A stretch of DNA of 64,000 nucleotides, taken from a virus. The translations under genes were made by a program, and so were the position numbers. Every line of letters begins with the position of its first letter. The stretch's first letter is position 1. The notes beneath the pieces were generated by a model, which was not told where the DNA came from, did no database searches, and was given only the letters and a program-made list of their open reading frames with translations. Location of the stretch: IMG/VR virus record IMGVR_UViG_3300023035_000005, positions 64,001 through 128,000 of that record; one strand, written 5' to 3'. Below, piece by piece: positions 1,546 through 16,322 of this stretch.

Positions 1546-4545
1546 TTTTCCCTATATATCTATGCAATTCTGCCATTTCCACATCTTCTAACGGTTTTGA
1601 ATCTAATAAATTTCATTTATTTTCTTCAAAGTTAAAAACACCGTTTTCCTTTTCTGTCGTTATTATCAATCTTCTATTGTCAAAGAACAAACGAAATGTT
1701 TGGTCTTTGAGTTCAACCGTAACGTGACCACCTCGTTTATATATATCTAAAGCAGATCTCAAACGCTTGTTAATGTAAATAACCTCTTTATTATCACTCT
1801 TTAACCCTTCTCTTAATAATTTGTCCATTTCTTCCATGCTGTATAAATGTCTTTGAAATCCAGTAGATGCTACCAATTCATTACCACCACCACCTGTACT
1901 AAACTGACCTCTGGTTGTTCAACTACTAATACCAACTCCTTCCTTTTTCTTTTCATAACCTGTTGGATCCCCAAATAAATCTTTTCTACCCTTTCTAAAC
2001 ATATTCAATAAATTAGTTGTTGATGACGGTAAATTTAGAAGTTTTTTCTCTAAGTCAACAATATCCGTTATAAAACCGTCTGTTGTAACTGAAACTACCT
2101 TTCCTTCTAATTTTTGTATGTTATGAAGTGTTTCTCCTATAACACTTCGAATAAACGCTGTTATTCAACTTGCTAAAATAGGATTTGATAAATCATTACC
2201 CTCCATTCTTACTGTTCTATTTAACCTAATATCATATTTCATTTTATTAGATATACCCCGACAAATTAGTCCGTAAATAGCATTTGCTAACTCCTTAAAA
2301 AGTAAATTGTTAATACTTTTTGCAACTTCGTTTGACCTTTTTGATTGCAATTCTTTTATCACCGCGTAGAACGTAGAAAGGTCTCATTAACAATTCCGCT
2401 TGATCTTTTTGCTCTTTAGTCAATTCTTCCTTAGGATCTTTTGATGCATATTTTTTCATGGGTATATAACAAATTTCCTTAAAAATTATTTCACAACATT
2501 GTTCCAAAGCTAATATGTACTCAGGACCTGTCAAATGACATTCACCTTCTAAAGGATATACTGTAGTTGTTTCATCTACAAAACATGGTATTGAAGGGTA
2601 TTTTGTATCTTTTGGAAACTTAAATTTCCCTTGTATACATGTATAAGAACGAATTATATCAATTGTATCAATTTTAGCTAATTCTTCTTTAGAAATGATT
2701 CTTGCGTTTTTATAATCAGGATCACCCATCAAACTCATCCCTGAAGTATAGGCGCTAGTTAGATCATAATCAACCCACTTAAAAGAATCATCAATCCCAT
2801 ACATAAAACTTTCATTTCTACCACCTTTGTAACTAGCTATGTATTTACTAATATGATGCCCAACATCACCCACAGAAAATAACCCCCTAGGCGTTTGTGT
2901 TTTTGCTGAATCATTTATTAAATACTCTGGGTTTATTTGATAACCTTCATAATTATTAAGTTGTCAAAACTTTCTTAAATGACTAGAAGAAAGCATTGAC
3001 AATGATAATGGAACTCCTATCATACCCAACTTAAATGCAAATTCCTCCATATAAACACCGTGTAATAAAGCTATTTTTGCATCTTGTATAGCATAATCCT
3101 TAAACAAGTTAAAATCCTCTACTAAAAGTTTATCCATTTTTGTTATTCAATCACCTATATCTATTTTAGGAAAATCATACATTTTTCCTAAAGCGGCTAA
3201 ACTGTTACTAGTACCGGGACACAATAACATTGCGTCCCTCATAATAACATTTATATCACCAACTAAATAAGGTTTTTTCAAACTTACCATTGATTTATTC
3301 ACTATATCGAAGTCATTTTTAAAGACTTCATAATCTTTTAAAATACTTAAATCCGCTGCTGTATAATGACCTACAAAATAATTATTTCTAGTTAAGGTAA
3401 CAGAAACTTTTTCTGGGGTAAAAGTTTGTTTATACGTTCTCTTAAACTTTTTACTAAGTACCTTCGGTTTTTCTATAGGTATTATAGATTCTAATTTTTC
3501 TACAGAATCTAAAGTCTCTACAGACTCTTTAAAGTGTTGACTAAAGTCAACAACTTTCTTTACATTTATTTCAGTAGTTTTTATACCCTCTAATTTTTTA
3601 TCACTTTTCACACCCTTAACATCCTCAACTAGATCTTCAAGATCAACCAGATCAACCAAATCATTGTTAAAAATCCTTTTTAACAACTCATATACCTCGC
3701 CCAACTTTACGTCTAAATCGTTTTTAGACATTGAGTCTGATTGATTAACTAATTCTGTTAATGAAACACCTTTAGCCACATCTAGAGAAAATCAAGTTTT
3801 TAACAAGCTTTTATCAAACATAAAGAACATGTTATCATTCTTCTCTGTAAAAGGTATACCCTCTTTTATTAAACCGTTTACTAACTTTTTAATGCTTTCA
3901 TCATAACTAGGGTAAAGAAGTTCTCTAACAAATTTTATATTGATGTTTATTAAATCATTTATATAATTTACATTTAATTTACCTCCTAACACCTCTTCTA
4001 GAGGTTTGTATGAAACATTACTTAAGGTATTTACCGACCTCATTCTATAAATATCAATCACAGAAGGAATTTTCATCACAACTCTGGAAACCACTGCTAA
4101 TTGAACCGATAATAGTTGATTTCTTATACCCTCTAAGTATTTATATTCGGTATCAAAACCGGTGTAAGTGTTTAACAAAAAACTGATTCCACCTTTTGCC
4201 AAACCCTTTTTGATATAGGATCTCAAAAAACTTTTGAGATCCTTACCAACAACCTTTAAATAACTATTTTTGTCGTTTTCAATAACATAAAAAAATGTTT
4301 TATTTATTCAAGTTACTAAAGTATATAGATCTAAATAAATTATATCAAATCAAACATTTAAAACCCTTATTTGGTGTTTAATTTCCAGATCATCAAATCG
4401 AGTTGGTTTATCCTTCTTATTCTGTTTTATCAGTTCCTGAATATACCTCGATGTGATGGGGAAATTCACAAAATGTTCTTCAGTAAATCCATTCACAAAC
4501 CCTTTGCTATTTAAACCATTTAACAGCGTTTTTTGAAGGAATATC
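1546..4545 (-). pseudogene. dpo: Plasmid-type family B DNA polymerase (TTD type), frameshifted and C-terminally truncated
   Basis: TGFDTEY exonuclease motif, YKGGRNE, VDYDLTSAY, KELANAIYG, VSVTTDGF; 7-nt tandem duplication (cgtagaa x2) near 2365-2378 shifts the frame; no start codon of its own. Confidence 0.88.
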
Positions 4546-11279: not shown

Positions 11280-11467
11280 CGTCCAACAAATTCATCCTTA
11301 TATTATACTATTTCTTAAAATATACCGCAGTATTCTAGTATACTAATTTGAACAAATATTTTCCTTTAAAAGGTTTACTTCTATTTTCTTTTAAGTATAA
11401 AGAAATACTGGGTTATCTCACTCAAATGATATATTAACCATATCCACTTTTTCTTACGTAAGACAAC

Positions 11468-13745
11468 TTAAACTAATTTAAAAAGATAAATACCTCTAAA
11501 CGGAGTAGTACGTTTCCTACTTAAATAAACGGAAATACTTGCCTGTGAAATACCCAGAGCTTCACCTGCTGAACTAAGCGAAGAATAATTAATAACTTCA
11601 TTTGTCTGAACATTAGTAACTTCTATAGCTTTACAGTTTTGTCCGACTGAGTCTAGTTTGGAGATAATGTACCCTTTAATGGTACTAACTTCCCCATTTG
11701 TAGATGAAGACTTGTTATTTTTTAAATAGTTTGAAAGTCGTCTAGGAGATATATCCAAAAATTGATATGCAGCTTTCATTGTAGAGAATTGTTGGGTAAT
11801 CCCTGTTACACTGTTAGTTAATTCTACAGCCTGTCATGAATTAGTTAGGCTAGAGGCAGAAGAGGTATCGCCCGCTAAAAAATTTAGCGCGGGAGATGTA
11901 GCTTTAGTAATCATATAACCTTTGTATGGCTTATTAGTAACTAAATACTTTTTTACAGTAGTCATATGAACACCTAAAAACAGAGCAGCCCGTATCAAAG
12001 AAGTAAATTCTTTATTCTCTCCTGTTTCGATATTAGAAAGAATAATCGCCACTCTAAAGGGATTATTTTTGGCCATTCCTTCTAATTGAGATTTAGATAA
12101 TTTTCGCCCTAACATAACCTCTCTTTTAAACTTCAGGACTTCCTCTGATTCATTTCTACTTTTGGAAGCAGCACTCATAAGTTTAAGAGAGGCTTCACTA
12201 TGTTTGTATCCCAAAGAAGATCCTGCTATTTTTAATATATTGTATTCTGGATTGAATTTATCTATGTAGAATTGCTCTCTATCCAGTACTATTGAAGTAG
12301 GACAATATTCTAAAATCTCTAATCTAAACCCAGCATAGCCATATTTTAAAAGTGCCCTACAAATAAGAGATGCACCTCTCATACTGCTCGACAAATAGCT
12401 ATGATTAAAGTATCGTCTAAATCTTTCATCCTCTTATTTTATAACTAACAGTTACTTACTTCTACTTTTTCTACCTTGTATCGCTTTTTGACTATAAATG
12501 GATCTCGAGTCATTTTCTTAAACCTTTTTGATATGGCAGCTTGTGAAACTCCCATTGCTTCTGCCGCTTTGGTTATGGAAGAATACATGGAAGTTTCATT
12601 TGTTTTTAAGTCTAAAACTTTTAGGGGTGTCCCCATATCTATACTCATTTTTGATTTCATTGTATCTGAAAGAACAGATTTTCCTAATTTGGCTAAGCTA
12701 ATTAAGGCTTTTGTTTCTTCACTATGTGTTTTACCAAAATTTGGGTTATTCATACCTTTCTTCGCAAGACTAAGTAATTTTTTAGTCTCTTCAGAAAATT
12801 TACGCCCTTTAGATGAGTTACTCATTCTAAGCCTGGCTTCCTCAGAATGAATATGTCCAAGTCTTGAACCTGCTGTAGTCAGTATATTATATTTGGGTTT
12901 TAGTAAATCAAGATAATATTGTTCTCTACTTATGGCGTTTTCTGTCGCACAGTATTCTAATATTTCTATTTGAAAGTTTTTTAAACCATACTTAACAATA
13001 GCACTATAGATTAGACTTTTACCTTTTAATAACTCTAAGGAAATATTCCTGAAGCTATAGTACTTTCTAAACCTATCTGTTAGATTTCCACTACTACCGA
13101 CATAGCTATTACCATTCTCTTTATTAACTCAACGATAAATTCCGGCTTTATTTTTATTATCCTTGAGTATAATAGATTTGTCAGTAGAAGCGTCAGAGTA
13201 TACTACAACAGGAATAACGCTTTCCTCATGTTTATCATTTGTAACCTGTGAGTAATTTCTACGCTGAGTTACATTATATTTAAAAATATACCTTTTATTT
13301 GTATAAAAATATACCTCCCTGCGGAGGGATCTACGTTCTCGTATTCACAAATTTATCCTTTGTATTTTATATTTATACGGACTTTTGTCAGTTTGAATAA
13401 GAACCTACATAACTTTTGCCTGAATCCTTATGAACTCAACGATAAACACCTGATTTACCTTTATTTTGTTTAATGATCAATCCTTTATGCTCATCAGGAT
13501 TAGTATAAATTAGAACAGGTTCAAGTTCAGAAGAAGTAGACATAGTTCTTATGTTTATTTCCCCTTTAAAGTGTGTATTACTTAAGTTGGTTGATGTAAG
13601 CCCAATTCGTTTTTGACAGTGAGTTCCGCCGTAGGTAAAGCTTTTTTGAATATAAATAGATGTTTTTAAACTTAATTTCTCTTCCATATCTGAAGGATAA
13701 GTTTTAATGAAAGATAAAATATCTTGTGTTTTGTTAACGAATAAT
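11468..13745 (-). pseudogene. GIY-YIG endonuclease D, split by a nested HEG (5' part 13391-13745, 3' part 11468-12430)
   Basis: KSGVYRW...KSYVGSYSN | DERFRRYFNH...ALLKYGYAGF...NUMOD repeats. Confidence 0.85.
12445..13339 (-). CDS. GIY-YIG endonuclease E (nested, open frame, no upstream ATG)
   Basis: KAGIYRW...NSYVGSSGNLTDRF, EQYYLDLLKPKYN, NUMOD3 (HSEETK) and NUMOD1-like end. Confidence 0.85.
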
Positions 13746-13768
13746 CGAATCACAATTTTATCCTCGAG

Positions 13769-15805
13769 TTAATATATATTTCGGTTATTTTCTGTAAAGT
13801 AGCTGTAACGACTTATATTTTTCCCGGCTGCTGCGAACGCAGCAGCGGAAATAGAAGAATATATTGTAACCTCTTTAGTGTCGACGTTAGTAACCTCCAC
13901 TTTCATAGAGGCTTTCTGAACCTTTTCTTGAATTAAATTTGTACTTTCGTCATCTGAGTTTAAGTTTAATTTAAAAGTATATCTACCTAAAACAGGTTTA
14001 TTTTGTTTCAAGTAAATGTAATGTTCAATATATCTTCTGTCTATATCTAAGGCTCGGGCTGCAGCTCTAATGGCATGGTAAGTAGTAGTAGTATTTGTTT
14101 CCAAATCAGTTACCTCAACTTCAATACCACTAGATTGACCTTTAGATAATTTAGTTAAAAATTCCGGAGATTTGAATGTCTTAGAAGCAGCTATACGCAT
14201 ATTCTCTATTGTAGCTTCAGAATGTGTTCACCCAGATCCTCGAGAAGGGCTTCCAGGTGTTTTTAATATATTATACTCAGGAGAGTATACTTCAAAAAAG
14301 TGTTTTTCTCTAGACATTAGACTATCTTTGTCACAAATTTCTAAGATAGTCAAAGTAAAGTTAGTGTAACCGTACTTTAATAATGCAATGTTAATGGGCA
14401 TACTTTTTTCGTTTAGTATTCTATTTACATTGTAATATTCCAAAAGTCTACGTCTCTGATTATGGTTTGGCCAATCAATAACTACTACTTATCAGAATTT
14501 TCCACCTTTTCAACTTGGTAACGTTTTTTAACTATAAAGGAACCTTGTGTATTCTTAACTCTTTTACTTAGTCCGGGCTGTGTAACACCCATTGCTTCAG
14601 CCGCCCTAGTTATAGAAGTATATGTTTAAATTTCATTTGTTTTTAAATCTAAAACTCTCAGTGATGTACCGGTATCTTTGCTCATTTTATCTCTAGCTGA
14701 ATCTGAAATAAAATTTTTACCTAATCTAGCTAAACTAATTAAAGCTTTAGTTTCTTTACTATGAGTTTTACCAAAGTTAGGATTATTGATACCTTTATTA
14801 GCCAAACTAAGTAATAATTTACTTTGTTCCGTGTGTTTAAACCCTACAGAAGATTTACTCATTTTTAACCTGCTTTCCTCCGAACAAATACTTCCAAGTC
14901 TTGAACCTGCTATATTATTAAGATTATATTCAGGTTTACATAAATCAATATAATATTGTTCCCTACTTATAGCATTTTCTTTTGTGCAGTATTCTAAGAT
15001 TTCTAACTGGAAATTAGAGTAACCATGCTTTAAAATTGCACTATAAATTCGGCTTTTAGCTTTTCCTATTCTAACTGAAAGATAAGAAAAATCATAGTAC
15101 ACTCTAAATCTTCGGGATAAATTTACACTACTACCTATATAGCTATTACCATTTACTTTGTTTACTCAACGATAAATACCTGCTTTATTTTTAAATTCTT
15201 TTAGAATGATAGATTTGTTCAAAAAAGCATCAGAATACGTTACAACTGCTATAAGGCTACTACTTTCTTTTGGTTGATCATTTGAAACCTGTGAGTAATT
15301 TCTACGCTGTAGAAAATTATATTTTAAAAGACACCTCTCATAAGGATACCTTTTAAAAGAGAAGGAATGTGAAAAAGATTTATGTTTTCGGAGTCACAAC
15401 TCTACCTTAACAAAAAATTATCCTAAATTGTGTACGAACTTACACTATATTTGTTATTATTCTACTAATTATTATTTTACTTATTAAAAATTATCCACAG
15501 AACTCCCTACATAATTCTTACCATTCAATTTGTTAGTTCACATATAAATACCAGATTTACCTTTAACATATTTAAGAACATTCAGTTTGTCTATGTCCGC
15601 ATCAGAAAAAACAGCTAGACCGGAAGAGGAATCGTCACTTTTTGAAGTTGAAAACATCCTTACGCCAATAGGTCTGGTACACTTCATAGAGAAGGCATAA
15701 TTTTTATATATAAAATTTAGGCTACGTGATCTCACATTATATAAGTGAAAACAATAAGATATGCCAGATCTCTTAGTAGAATCTTTAACCAAAGATAATA
15801 TAAGT
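13769..15805 (-). pseudogene. GIY-YIG endonuclease A, split by a nested HEG (5' part 15493-15805, 3' part 13769-14458)
   Basis: KSGIYMW...NYVGSSVD | RRRLLEYYNVNR...ALLKYGY. Confidence 0.85.
14485..15388 (-). pseudogene. GIY-YIG endonuclease B (nested; paralogue of E) with late in-frame TAA
   Basis: KAGIYRW...NSYIGSSVNLSRRF; TAA at 14626-14628, homology to E continues to 14485. Confidence 0.85.
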
Positions 15806-16322
15806 CGTTCACAACTTTATCCTTTCTTTAAAGGTATATATAAACTTTGTCCCTTATTTAAAAGTGTTTATATACTTTATCCTTTCTTTAAAGTGTTACA
15901 GTATAAACTTTTCGTATCATGAAAATAACCGAAAGATTATCTAAGTCTATATATAATAACATAGTTATTTTCTTTATTTTCCTTAAGGATAGGCTATTGC
16001 GATACCTTTAATCTTAGGTTACTTAGTTTCTCCTAAGAACCAGCTTTCCTGGCGACTAGAGTACACCTTACCATTAGTTTAATGTAATGGAAGAACCGTC
16101 TACTCGTTGCTCTTTTACAATAATCATTTCAAATATTACTGATTTAGATCCACGATCACCCATTCCTATTACTAGAATCTCTAATGATATTACTATACCC
16201 TCAATCATTAATGAGGCCAGGTAAGAAGTTTCCGTCTTATCTTTAGTTATTAGAGCTTTAGGGCTTCCCTGGAGTTTGGTTCTTTAACACAACAGAAATG
16301 AGGTACCTAATCTCATATTTTT

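What the first reader, a model, noticed from the sequence alone, without database searches (positions are those of the whole stretch)
12431..15492. A GIY-YIG lineage that inserts into the catalytic motif of other GIY-YIG genes (hyperparasite)
Seen: paralogues B (14485-15388) and E (12445-13339) share QRRNYSQV...KNKAGIYRWVNK and each interrupts a different, dissimilar host gene at the equivalent codon: host A YVGSSVD|(L)RRRLLEY and host D YVGSYSN|(L)DERFRRY. Inference: two independent insertions by an endonuclease whose target is the conserved YIG-S-x-x-[DN]-L coding DNA. Such an element would kill the resident HEG while borrowing the intron's splicing. Only E is still fully open.
Basis: partly seen in the sequence, partly recalled or inferred. 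Interest (0 to 1): 0.85.

Follow-up and report, generated by a model that had tools for sequence, protein, structure and literature searches.

The report
Endonuclease gene nested inside endonuclease genes
In a fungal mitochondrial intron, one lineage of selfish nuclease genes sits inside two other, dissimilar nuclease genes at the same point of their catalytic motif; the same nesting recurs in many fungi, which marks the lineage as a parasite of parasites.

Summary
The window is fungal mitochondrial DNA (code 4, genes on the minus strand). The atp6 intron "572" (16322-11280) holds GIY-YIG gene A, split after YVGSSVD by B, and gene D, split after YVGS by E. B and E are 65% identical. A and D are only 36-42% identical.

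Public contigs support most of the interpretation:
- All 28 distinct B/E-type genes recovered have host gene halves on at least one flank.
- Relatives at 55% identity or less are ordinary, un-nested genes.
- In a tree the inserts form one clade (support 99). The hosts fall into at least five clades, in atp6, rnl and nad1 introns.
- Empty sites exist: 94 of the 120 closest A homologues read straight through the motif, and intact D and X alleles were found.
- Every combination of filled and empty A and D sites occurs, so B-in-A and E-in-D are separate events.
- Filled A alleles are scattered among empty ones (at least 8 changes).
- Inserts are less diverged at silent sites than their hosts in 18 of 20 comparisons.

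No ribozyme signal was found in the inserts, and excising them would not restore A or D here. Cleavage specificity is untested. The host halves still evolve under purifying selection, which is unexplained. Papers list "two GIY-YIG ORFs" in this intron, but I found none that describes the nesting.

The parts
11280..16322 (-). atp6 group I intron at position 572, the outermost carrier of all the nested genes. It lies between the mini-exon 16373-16323 (..SYLARNISLGLRLAANI) and the last exon 11279-11072.
   Evidence: Exon reading. Splice points were placed by comparison with L001 and L004, where the same exons flank the same intron. An earlier scan note names it intron 572.
15493..15816 (-). A-N: the N-terminal part of resident GIY-YIG gene A, with ATG at 15657. 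It ends ..GIYMWTNKLNGKNYVGSSVD.
   Evidence: It matches the N-termini of 94 intact A homologues.
14462..15492 (-). B insert: a leader plus a complete GIY-YIG/NUMOD3/HTH gene of the B/E clade. The ORF is 15417-14485, broken by an in-frame TAA at 14628-14626. A 31-base tail follows before the host resumes.
   Evidence: It falls in the insert clade in the tree.
13769..14461 (-). A-C: the rest of gene A (RRRLLEYY.., two NUMOD1 modules). Its last ~20 codons are replaced because the D unit is inserted in its 3' end.
13391..13768 (-). D-N: the N-terminal part of GIY-YIG gene D, related to gene F of the upstream intron. It ends ..GVYRWVHKDSGKSYVGS.
   Evidence: An intact D allele is in L020.
12431..13390 (-). 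E insert: a leader plus an open 319-codon GIY-YIG/NUMOD3/HTH ORF (13404-12445) of the B/E clade, with a 14-base tail.
11468..12430 (-). D-C: the rest of gene D (DERFRRYF.. to its natural stop).
11335..11393 (-). Leftover last codons of gene A (LKENRSKPFKGKYLFKLVY, stop), displaced by the D unit.
   Evidence: Read. It matches the ends of A in L004 and L005.

Best explanation
B and E belong to one clade of intron-less GIY-YIG homing endonuclease cassettes whose home is the coding DNA of other GIY-YIG endonuclease genes. The insertion point is just after the YxGS[SA] part of the catalytic motif, in front of the conserved Leu-x-x-Arg.

Proposed mechanism:
1. The enzyme cuts an uninterrupted host gene near this point.
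2. Repair from a filled allele copies the roughly 1 kb cassette in.
3. Because the host gene lies inside a group I intron, the cassette leaves the mRNA together with the intron and costs the organism nothing.
4. Rare jumps to paralogous GIY-YIG genes, helped by the motif DNA they share, founded host-specific sublineages: B-type in gene A of atp6 intron 572, E-type in gene D, and others in rnl and nad1 intron genes.

What is shown: the nesting, the constant site, the single insert clade against many host clades, the filled and empty alleles, and the independence of the A and D sites. What is inferred: that the cassette's own nuclease makes the cut, and what its recognition sequence is.
For: - Anatomy and domains are.
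- The same A-N/B/A-C nesting lies in the same atp6 intron of other fungi (L001, L004).
- D-N/E/D-C is also seen elsewhere, in frame with D-N (P0002-4, L005, L009).
- Other hosts carry the insert: X in an rnl intron (L007, group I core 98 bits upstream), Y in a nad1 intron (L008), and a Cryphonectria protein (P0014).
- In a census of 80 metagenome loci, every B/E-type gene at about 60% identity or more shows the order hostN-insertN-insertC-hostC, or is cut by a contig end. Relatives at 55% or less are plain. All 28 of 28 have a host part on a flank.
- In the tree, inserts form one clade (99) and hosts at least five clades. Insert subclades follow host type.
- Empty sites exist: 94 of 120 A homologues, D in L020 and X in L050.
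- All filled/empty combinations of A and D occur.
- Filled A alleles are interspersed with empty ones, needing at least 8 changes, 5 of them forced by strong branches.
- dS of the insert is below dS of the host C-half in 10 of 10 A/B pairs and 8 of 10 D/E pairs.
- 21 of 27 B/E-type insert ORFs are open for about 230 codons past the motif, with dN/dS 0.13-0.44 in most pairs.
Against: - No cleavage data exist, and the recognition site is unknown.
- Host halves evolve at dN/dS 0.16-0.45 and mostly stay open. This is odd for genes that have been killed. Recent re-invasion of intact alleles is my explanation, but it is not shown.
- Sliding identity along filled units gives no clear co-conversion gradient.
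- In this window neither copy looks expressible in a simple way. B has a stop. E has no ATG and is out of frame with D-N.
- One un-nested, long-branched gene (L047) falls inside the insert clade.
- The pairs used for dS are not independent.
Confidence: 0.75

Rival explanations
1. Passive recombination. The cassette has no targeting of its own. It spreads between GIY-YIG genes by ectopic gene conversion or microhomology-mediated repair, because the motif-coding DNA is the best shared homology. The breaks come from other nucleases or from replication errors.
For: Junctions carry short shared strings. The last ~17 bases at the 3' junction are nearly the same in host A (L004, L025) and host Y (L008), but are read in different registers. 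The tail of the insert in L007 resembles host A's flank. Junctions differ by small deletions between direct repeats. The 9 bases TATGTAGGT are identical in A and D.
Against: The insert ORFs are kept open and under purifying selection in most loci, which argues that the protein matters. Only this one clade is found nested at this site, whereas passive recombination should nest any GIY-YIG gene. Filled alleles recur among empty ones many times.
Confidence: 0.13
2. One ancient composite. A single nesting happened once, the composite gene then duplicated and diverged into A[B], D[E] and the rest, and today's uninterrupted alleles arose by precise loss.
For: Insert subclades mirror host types. In some pairs dS of insert and host are equal (L022 against L024).
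Against: A and D are 36-42% identical against 65% for B and E, while their dN rates within a type differ by at most about 1.5-fold. Un-nested clades lie between the host clades, so many precise losses would be needed. 94 of 120 A homologues are intact, and in this window excision cannot restore the frame.
Confidence: 0.06
3. Twintron. B and E are carried by small self-splicing introns, so that A and D are restored in RNA and all four genes stay functional.
For: Host halves are under purifying selection. In the window one can choose boundaries with U before and G at the end of the insert. Nested introns that interrupt endonuclease ORFs are known (PMC4801052, listed).
Against: The ORF and its conserved coding leader fill the insert. 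Only 0-31 bases separate the stop from the host flank. There is no group I match inside any insert at E up to 1, although the host intron core of L007 scores 98 bits. Junctions vary by indels that are not multiples of three, and 5 bases (A) or about 9 bases (D) of host sequence are missing, so no common splice solution rebuilds the host.
Confidence: 0.05

Closest known systems
Mobile GIY-YIG ORF in the cytochrome b intron of Podospora curvicolla (Saguez, Lecellier and Koll, Nucleic Acids Res 2000). The content is recalled from memory. Only the citation was seen here, in the reference list of PMC6221350; the paper itself is not held.
   Same: A GIY-YIG gene moves as a cassette without its own intron, lands inside another endonuclease ORF in a group I intron, and can form a fused reading frame. 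Optional (filled and empty) alleles exist.
   Different: There the host is a LAGLIDADG gene and the case is a single one. Here the hosts are members of the invader's own superfamily, hit at their catalytic motif, in at least five host lineages and three carrier genes.
Twintrons whose inner intron interrupts the endonuclease ORF of the outer intron, for example mS1247 of Chaetomium thermophilum (PMC4801052; reviewed in PMC8393795).
   Same: One mobile element sits inside the endonuclease gene of another, within one intron.
   Different: The inner element there is a ribozyme that splices out and rebuilds the ORF. Here no ribozyme was found, and excision would not rebuild the host.
Published annotations of two GIY-YIG ORFs in one atp6 intron: atp6-572 of Ophiostoma ips (PMC12308204), atp6 i3 'gg' of Chrysoporthe and Cryphonectria (PMC4894602), and atp6-i2 of Annulohypoxylon stygium at 1,918 or 3,269 bp (PMC6140425).
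   Same: For O. ips this is the intron at the same atp6 position (572), and strains differ in having one or two ORFs. The Chrysoporthe/Cryphonectria and A. stygium introns are only possibly equivalent. I did not compare any of these sequences.
   Different: The ORFs are listed side by side. None of these papers says that one lies inside the other or at the catalytic motif.
Free-standing GIY-YIG homing endonuclease genes of T4-like phages (seg and mob genes; PMC2988022, listed), from general knowledge.
   Same: Intron-less cassettes that spread by cutting a cognate site lacking them.
   Different: Those sit between or beside essential genes, not inside genes of their own family.

Membership tests
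GIY-YIG homing endonucleases (I-TevI type) | GIY-YIG catalytic domain with its conserved Tyr, Tyr, Arg, Glu and Asn positions | tested here: met
   PF01541 covers profile positions 2-78 in B (E 1.4e-10) and E (E 2.4e-10). GIY, YxG, R, ILEYC and YN are visible in the translations.
GIY-YIG homing endonucleases (I-TevI type) | C-terminal DNA-binding modules joined to the nuclease | tested here: met
   NUMOD3 at E 1.5e-18 (E) and 4.3e-17 (B). E also has weak NUMOD1 and helix-turn-helix matches, below Pfam's cut-offs, at residues 262-298.
GIY-YIG homing endonucleases (I-TevI type) | Site-specific cleavage of the allele that lacks the gene | not testable with these tools
   This needs a protein assay on intact A and D alleles.
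Homing element in general | A fixed insertion site with both filled and empty alleles among close relatives | tested here: met
Group I intron or twintron | A ribozyme core inside the inserted element | tested here: not met
   No Intron_gpI match in any insert at E up to 1. The model is weak on mitochondrial introns and also missed the atp6 host cores, so this is not absolute. Almost no non-coding room is left in the inserts.
Group I intron or twintron | Removal of the element restores the host reading frame | tested here: not met
   The window lacks 5 bases of A and about 9 of D. L001 lacks 7 bases at the 3' flank relative to L004. Junction indels differ among lineages.
Mobile ORF cassette fused to a host ORF (P. 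curvicolla type) | Insert reading frame continuous with the upstream host ORF | tested here: inconclusive
   Met in L005, L007, L008, L009 and in P0002-4, P0014, P0038 and P0063. Not met in the window or in any B-in-A locus, where a separate conserved leader (..ILWLREHRP..) is used.

The most novel reading that the evidence does not exclude
The B/E clade is an obligate hyperparasite of homing endonuclease genes. Its recognition site includes the most conserved coding stretch of its own superfamily. That lets it hop between GIY-YIG genes in different introns (atp6, rnl, nad1) and end the homing phase of those introns, which would be a previously unrecognised step in the life cycle of mobile introns. 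The purifying selection on the split host halves would then mean that the nested pair still works together in some way.
Probability: 0.5. Interest if true: 0.85.

Novelty: new variant of a known kind. Interest (0 to 1): 0.74.

Why it matters
A lineage that actively invades and splits other endonuclease genes would be a second, faster route to that end. It would also be a clear case of selfish elements parasitising selfish elements inside an organelle.

It would explain the "two GIY-YIG ORFs" that mitogenome papers keep listing in atp6 and other introns, and it would help annotators join split genes.

If the enzymes really recognise motif-coding DNA, they offer a natural series of related nucleases with shifted specificities (A, D, X and Y targets). 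That series would be useful for studying how modular GIY-YIG enzymes retarget.

Tried and rejected
- **Rfam searches.** Searches of the region and of seven related loci found no ribozyme in the inserts. The model also missed the atp6 host cores, so the negative result is weak.
- **Co-conversion signature.** Sliding-window identity along filled units gave only a slightly higher identity in the insert and no gradient. This is inconclusive.
- **Target-site duplication.** GTRGAT appears on both sides in L025. Most of the 3' copy is probably the insert's own stop codon plus 2-3 host bases, so I do not claim a duplication.
- **Domain swap.** P0064 has a catalytic half slightly closer to another clade (61% against 55%) and a B/E-type DNA-binding half (65% against 36%), at the same site. 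This is suggestive only.
- **Own genome.** It is not held, so other copies outside the window could not be counted.
- **Saguez 2000.** The paper could not be read.
- **Exact-phrase literature searches.** Searches for a GIY-YIG gene interrupted by or nested in another found nothing. The library lacks most subscription journals, so prior description cannot be excluded.
- **Assembly artefact.** Rejected, because the arrangement recurs in dozens of independent assemblies.
Full report
**Setting.** The window reads as fungal mitochondrial DNA: about 30% G+C, genes on the minus strand, TGA as Trp. The finding lies in atp6.
- The first atp6 exon runs into a LAGLIDADG ORF (19970-18501).
- A second intron carries GIY-YIG gene F (17726-16451).
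- A mini-exon (16373-16323) encodes ..SYLARNISLGLRLAANI.
- The last exon is 11279-11072.
- Between the last two lies a 5,043-base intron (16322-11280). An earlier scan note calls it intron 572.
- Two other fungal contigs have the same exons around the same intron (L001, L004).

**The observation.** Read 5' to 3' on the minus strand, the intron holds A-N, B, A-C, D-N, E, D-C and a short leftover of A's end. Coordinates are under parts.
- Pfam finds complete GIY-YIG plus NUMOD3 in B and E. A-N has only a sub-threshold match to the first 20 positions of the GIY-YIG profile, and D-N has no hit. A-C and D-C have NUMOD1 modules.
- B and E align over their whole length, including the leader with QRRNYSQV, and are 65% identical as proteins.
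- A and D are 36-42% identical, no closer to each other than either is to B or E.
- B carries one in-frame TAA (14628-14626). E is open but has no ATG near its start.

**Is it an insertion into a once-continuous gene?** Yes.
- Of the 120 best database homologues of A-C, 94 are single proteins that read ..KYVGSSVDLRRRLLEYYNV.. straight through the point where B sits.
- An uninterrupted D allele (..YVGSSTMLNDRFKRYF..) lies in L020, and an uninterrupted relative of a third host (X) lies in L050.
- Against these, the window's A has lost five bases (TTAAG) at the junction. D has lost about nine, and the letters YSN before E are not original D codons.
- The two insertion points fall within the three codons between GS[SA] and the conserved Leu.

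**Is it a lineage with a habit?** This is the main result.
- The closest homologues of E include proteins in which a D-type N-terminus runs in frame into an E-type gene (P0002-4, P0007). Others have different host N-termini ending in YxGSS followed by a full B/E-type enzyme (P0014 of Cryphonectria parasitica, P0021, P0038, P0063, P0075, P0082, P0104).
- Fetched contexts show host X in an rnl intron (L007, with the intron's own ribozyme core upstream) and host Y in a nad1 intron (L008).
- A scan of metagenome contigs with an alignment of six B/E bodies returned 80 loci. I marked the N-side motif (GIY..YxG) and the C-side motif (LKYG..ILEYC) along each. Every locus with about 60% identity or more to B/E has the order hostN, insertN, insertC, hostC, or is cut by a contig end or a further insertion. 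Loci at 55% or less have the plain order N, C.
- Counted strictly, 28 of 28 distinct B/E-type genes have a host part on at least one flank. Host N was found in 21 of 26 with enough upstream sequence, and host C in 21 of 23 with enough downstream sequence.

**Phylogeny.** The tree used 85 catalytic cores (quick IQ-TREE, about 100 columns, so only strong branches count).
- All inserts fall in one clade (support 99).
- Hosts fall in separate clades: A (99), D (97, next to F), X with its intact relative (93), and Y and Z apart.
- Within the insert clade, E-type genes in D hosts (99) and B-type genes in A hosts (97) are distinct. The X- and Y-hosted inserts branch beside the B-type group.
- One long-branched, un-nested gene (L047) also falls in the clade. 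It may be a free-living relative or may be misplaced.

**Independence and mobility.**
- The two sites vary independently. A is empty at the motif with D filled in L010, L011 and L013. A is filled with D empty in L020. Both are filled in the window and in L009, a 206 kb contig. A is filled and there is no D gene in L001 and L004. This removes the rival that A[B] and D[E] are copies of one duplicated unit.
- In a tree of 115 A C-halves, filled alleles are scattered among empty ones. At least 8 changes of state are needed, 5 forced by strong branches, and the window's A-C is nearest to intact alleles.
- Synonymous divergence of the insert is lower than that of the host C-half from the same two contigs in 10 of 10 A/B pairs and 8 of 10 D/E pairs. 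The pairs are not independent. The direction fits an insert that moves among host alleles.
- 21 of 27 B/E-type insert ORFs are open for about 230 codons past the motif, and dN/dS is 0.13-0.44 in most pairs.

**Is the insert an intron?** I found nothing for it.
- The conserved coding leader (..ILWLREHRP..KYN..RRNYSQ..) and the ORF fill the element. Only 0 to 31 bases separate the stop codon from the host flank.
- No group I match lies in any insert, though the rnl host intron core scores 98 bits.
- Junctions differ among lineages by small indels, so no common pair of splice sites would rebuild the host.
- GC-rich palindromes have landed at some junctions (L004, L029).

**How it most likely works.** By analogy with characterised GIY-YIG homing enzymes (general knowledge), the B/E protein would bind a long, tolerant site around the insertion point through its NUMOD3/HTH tail and cut nearby. 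Repair from a filled allele would then copy the cassette. Sitting inside an intron-borne gene, the cassette is removed from atp6 mRNA with the intron. Host switches would be rare off-target events at paralogous motif DNA. The 3' junction strings shared between hosts A and Y, and an A-like flank remnant in the X-hosted element, hint at carried-over flanks, but these stretches are short. In D, X and Y hosts the cassette is often fused in frame to the host's N-terminus and so can use its start codon. In A hosts it has its own leader, with ATG in L001 and L015 only. None of the cutting steps is shown.

**What does not fit.** If the host gene were simply killed, its halves should decay. Instead A-C and D-C mostly stay open and show dN/dS of 0.16-0.45. 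This includes a pair that shares the same junction deletion (L022 against L024, 0.22). Repeated recent invasion of intact alleles, with junction features carried along, could explain this. So could some residual role of the halves. I cannot tell which. A sliding identity profile gave no clear co-conversion gradient.

**Known or new.**
- Mitogenome papers list two GIY-YIG ORFs in atp6-572 of Ophiostoma ips (with strains having one), in an atp6 intron of Chrysoporthe and Cryphonectria, and a 1,918 or 3,269 base atp6 intron in Annulohypoxylon stygium. None says that one ORF lies inside the other.
- Exact-phrase searches found nothing. A large comparative study of fungal GIY-YIG genes does not mention nesting.
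- The closest precedent I know is the mobile GIY-YIG ORF that inserts into a LAGLIDADG ORF in Podospora curvicolla. That content is from memory; only the citation was seen.
- I therefore class this as a new variant of a known kind: a homing endonuclease cassette that homes into endonuclease genes of its own family at their catalytic motif.
- The library lacks most subscription journals, so an earlier description cannot be ruled out.

Noticed in passing
window 13768-11335 (minus strand); also L005, L010, L020: The whole D unit is itself inserted into the 3' end of gene A. A-C ends abnormally at 13769, and A's true last codons (LKENRSKPFKGKYLFKLVY) reappear at 11393-11335 after D-C, with the ..ENR.. 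codons present on both sides. The nesting order is therefore atp6, intron 572, A, then B and D, then E inside D.
   Followed up: partly
window 15822-15809, 13763-13750, 13358-13345 (minus strand); compare 11297-11284: The 14-mer GGATAAANTTGTGA occurs with at most one mismatch at only three places in the 64 kb window, each at the start of a GIY-YIG unit (A, D, E). It resembles the last bases of the intron before the 3' exon (GGATGAATTTGTTG). I did not test that.
   Followed up: partly
window 13328-13314; L004 about 3893-3913; L008 4484-4640 and 5144-5300: Small GC-rich palindromes are inserted in AT-rich coding DNA. One is in E's leader (CCCTCCGCAGGGAGG), absent from B. One sits at the A/B junction of L004. 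In L008 the same in-frame 15-codon insert (VSSPARRLKRGDYLL) splits the REQYY motif of both the insert and its host.
   Followed up: no
window 17726-16451 (minus strand): Gene F of the upstream atp6 intron is a patchwork. After ..KPEYNM it continues into a second GIY-YIG N-terminal fragment (..NEGKSGVYCWKNL, about 17012-16981) and then changes frame into a NUMOD1 tail.
   Followed up: no
L043 560-1900; proteins P0006, P0104: A different layout: an F-like N-terminal fragment ending YIGSS, then a B/E-type insert, then a complete F-like gene with its own N-terminus. Here the host is intact downstream of the insert.
   Followed up: no
window 13390-13260 and 14484-14462; L005 900-960; L009 2445-2500: There are signs of exchange between B and E where both coexist. 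The window's E (and L012's) has the long B-type leader, which the E-type genes of L005 and L009 lack. The window's B has a 3' tail (TTAT..AATCAGAG) like E's, which other B-type genes lack.
   Followed up: partly
L009 1-261; L012 3-545: In two relatives a LAGLIDADG ORF lies where the 5' part of gene A should be. This is a further layer of invasion.
   Followed up: no
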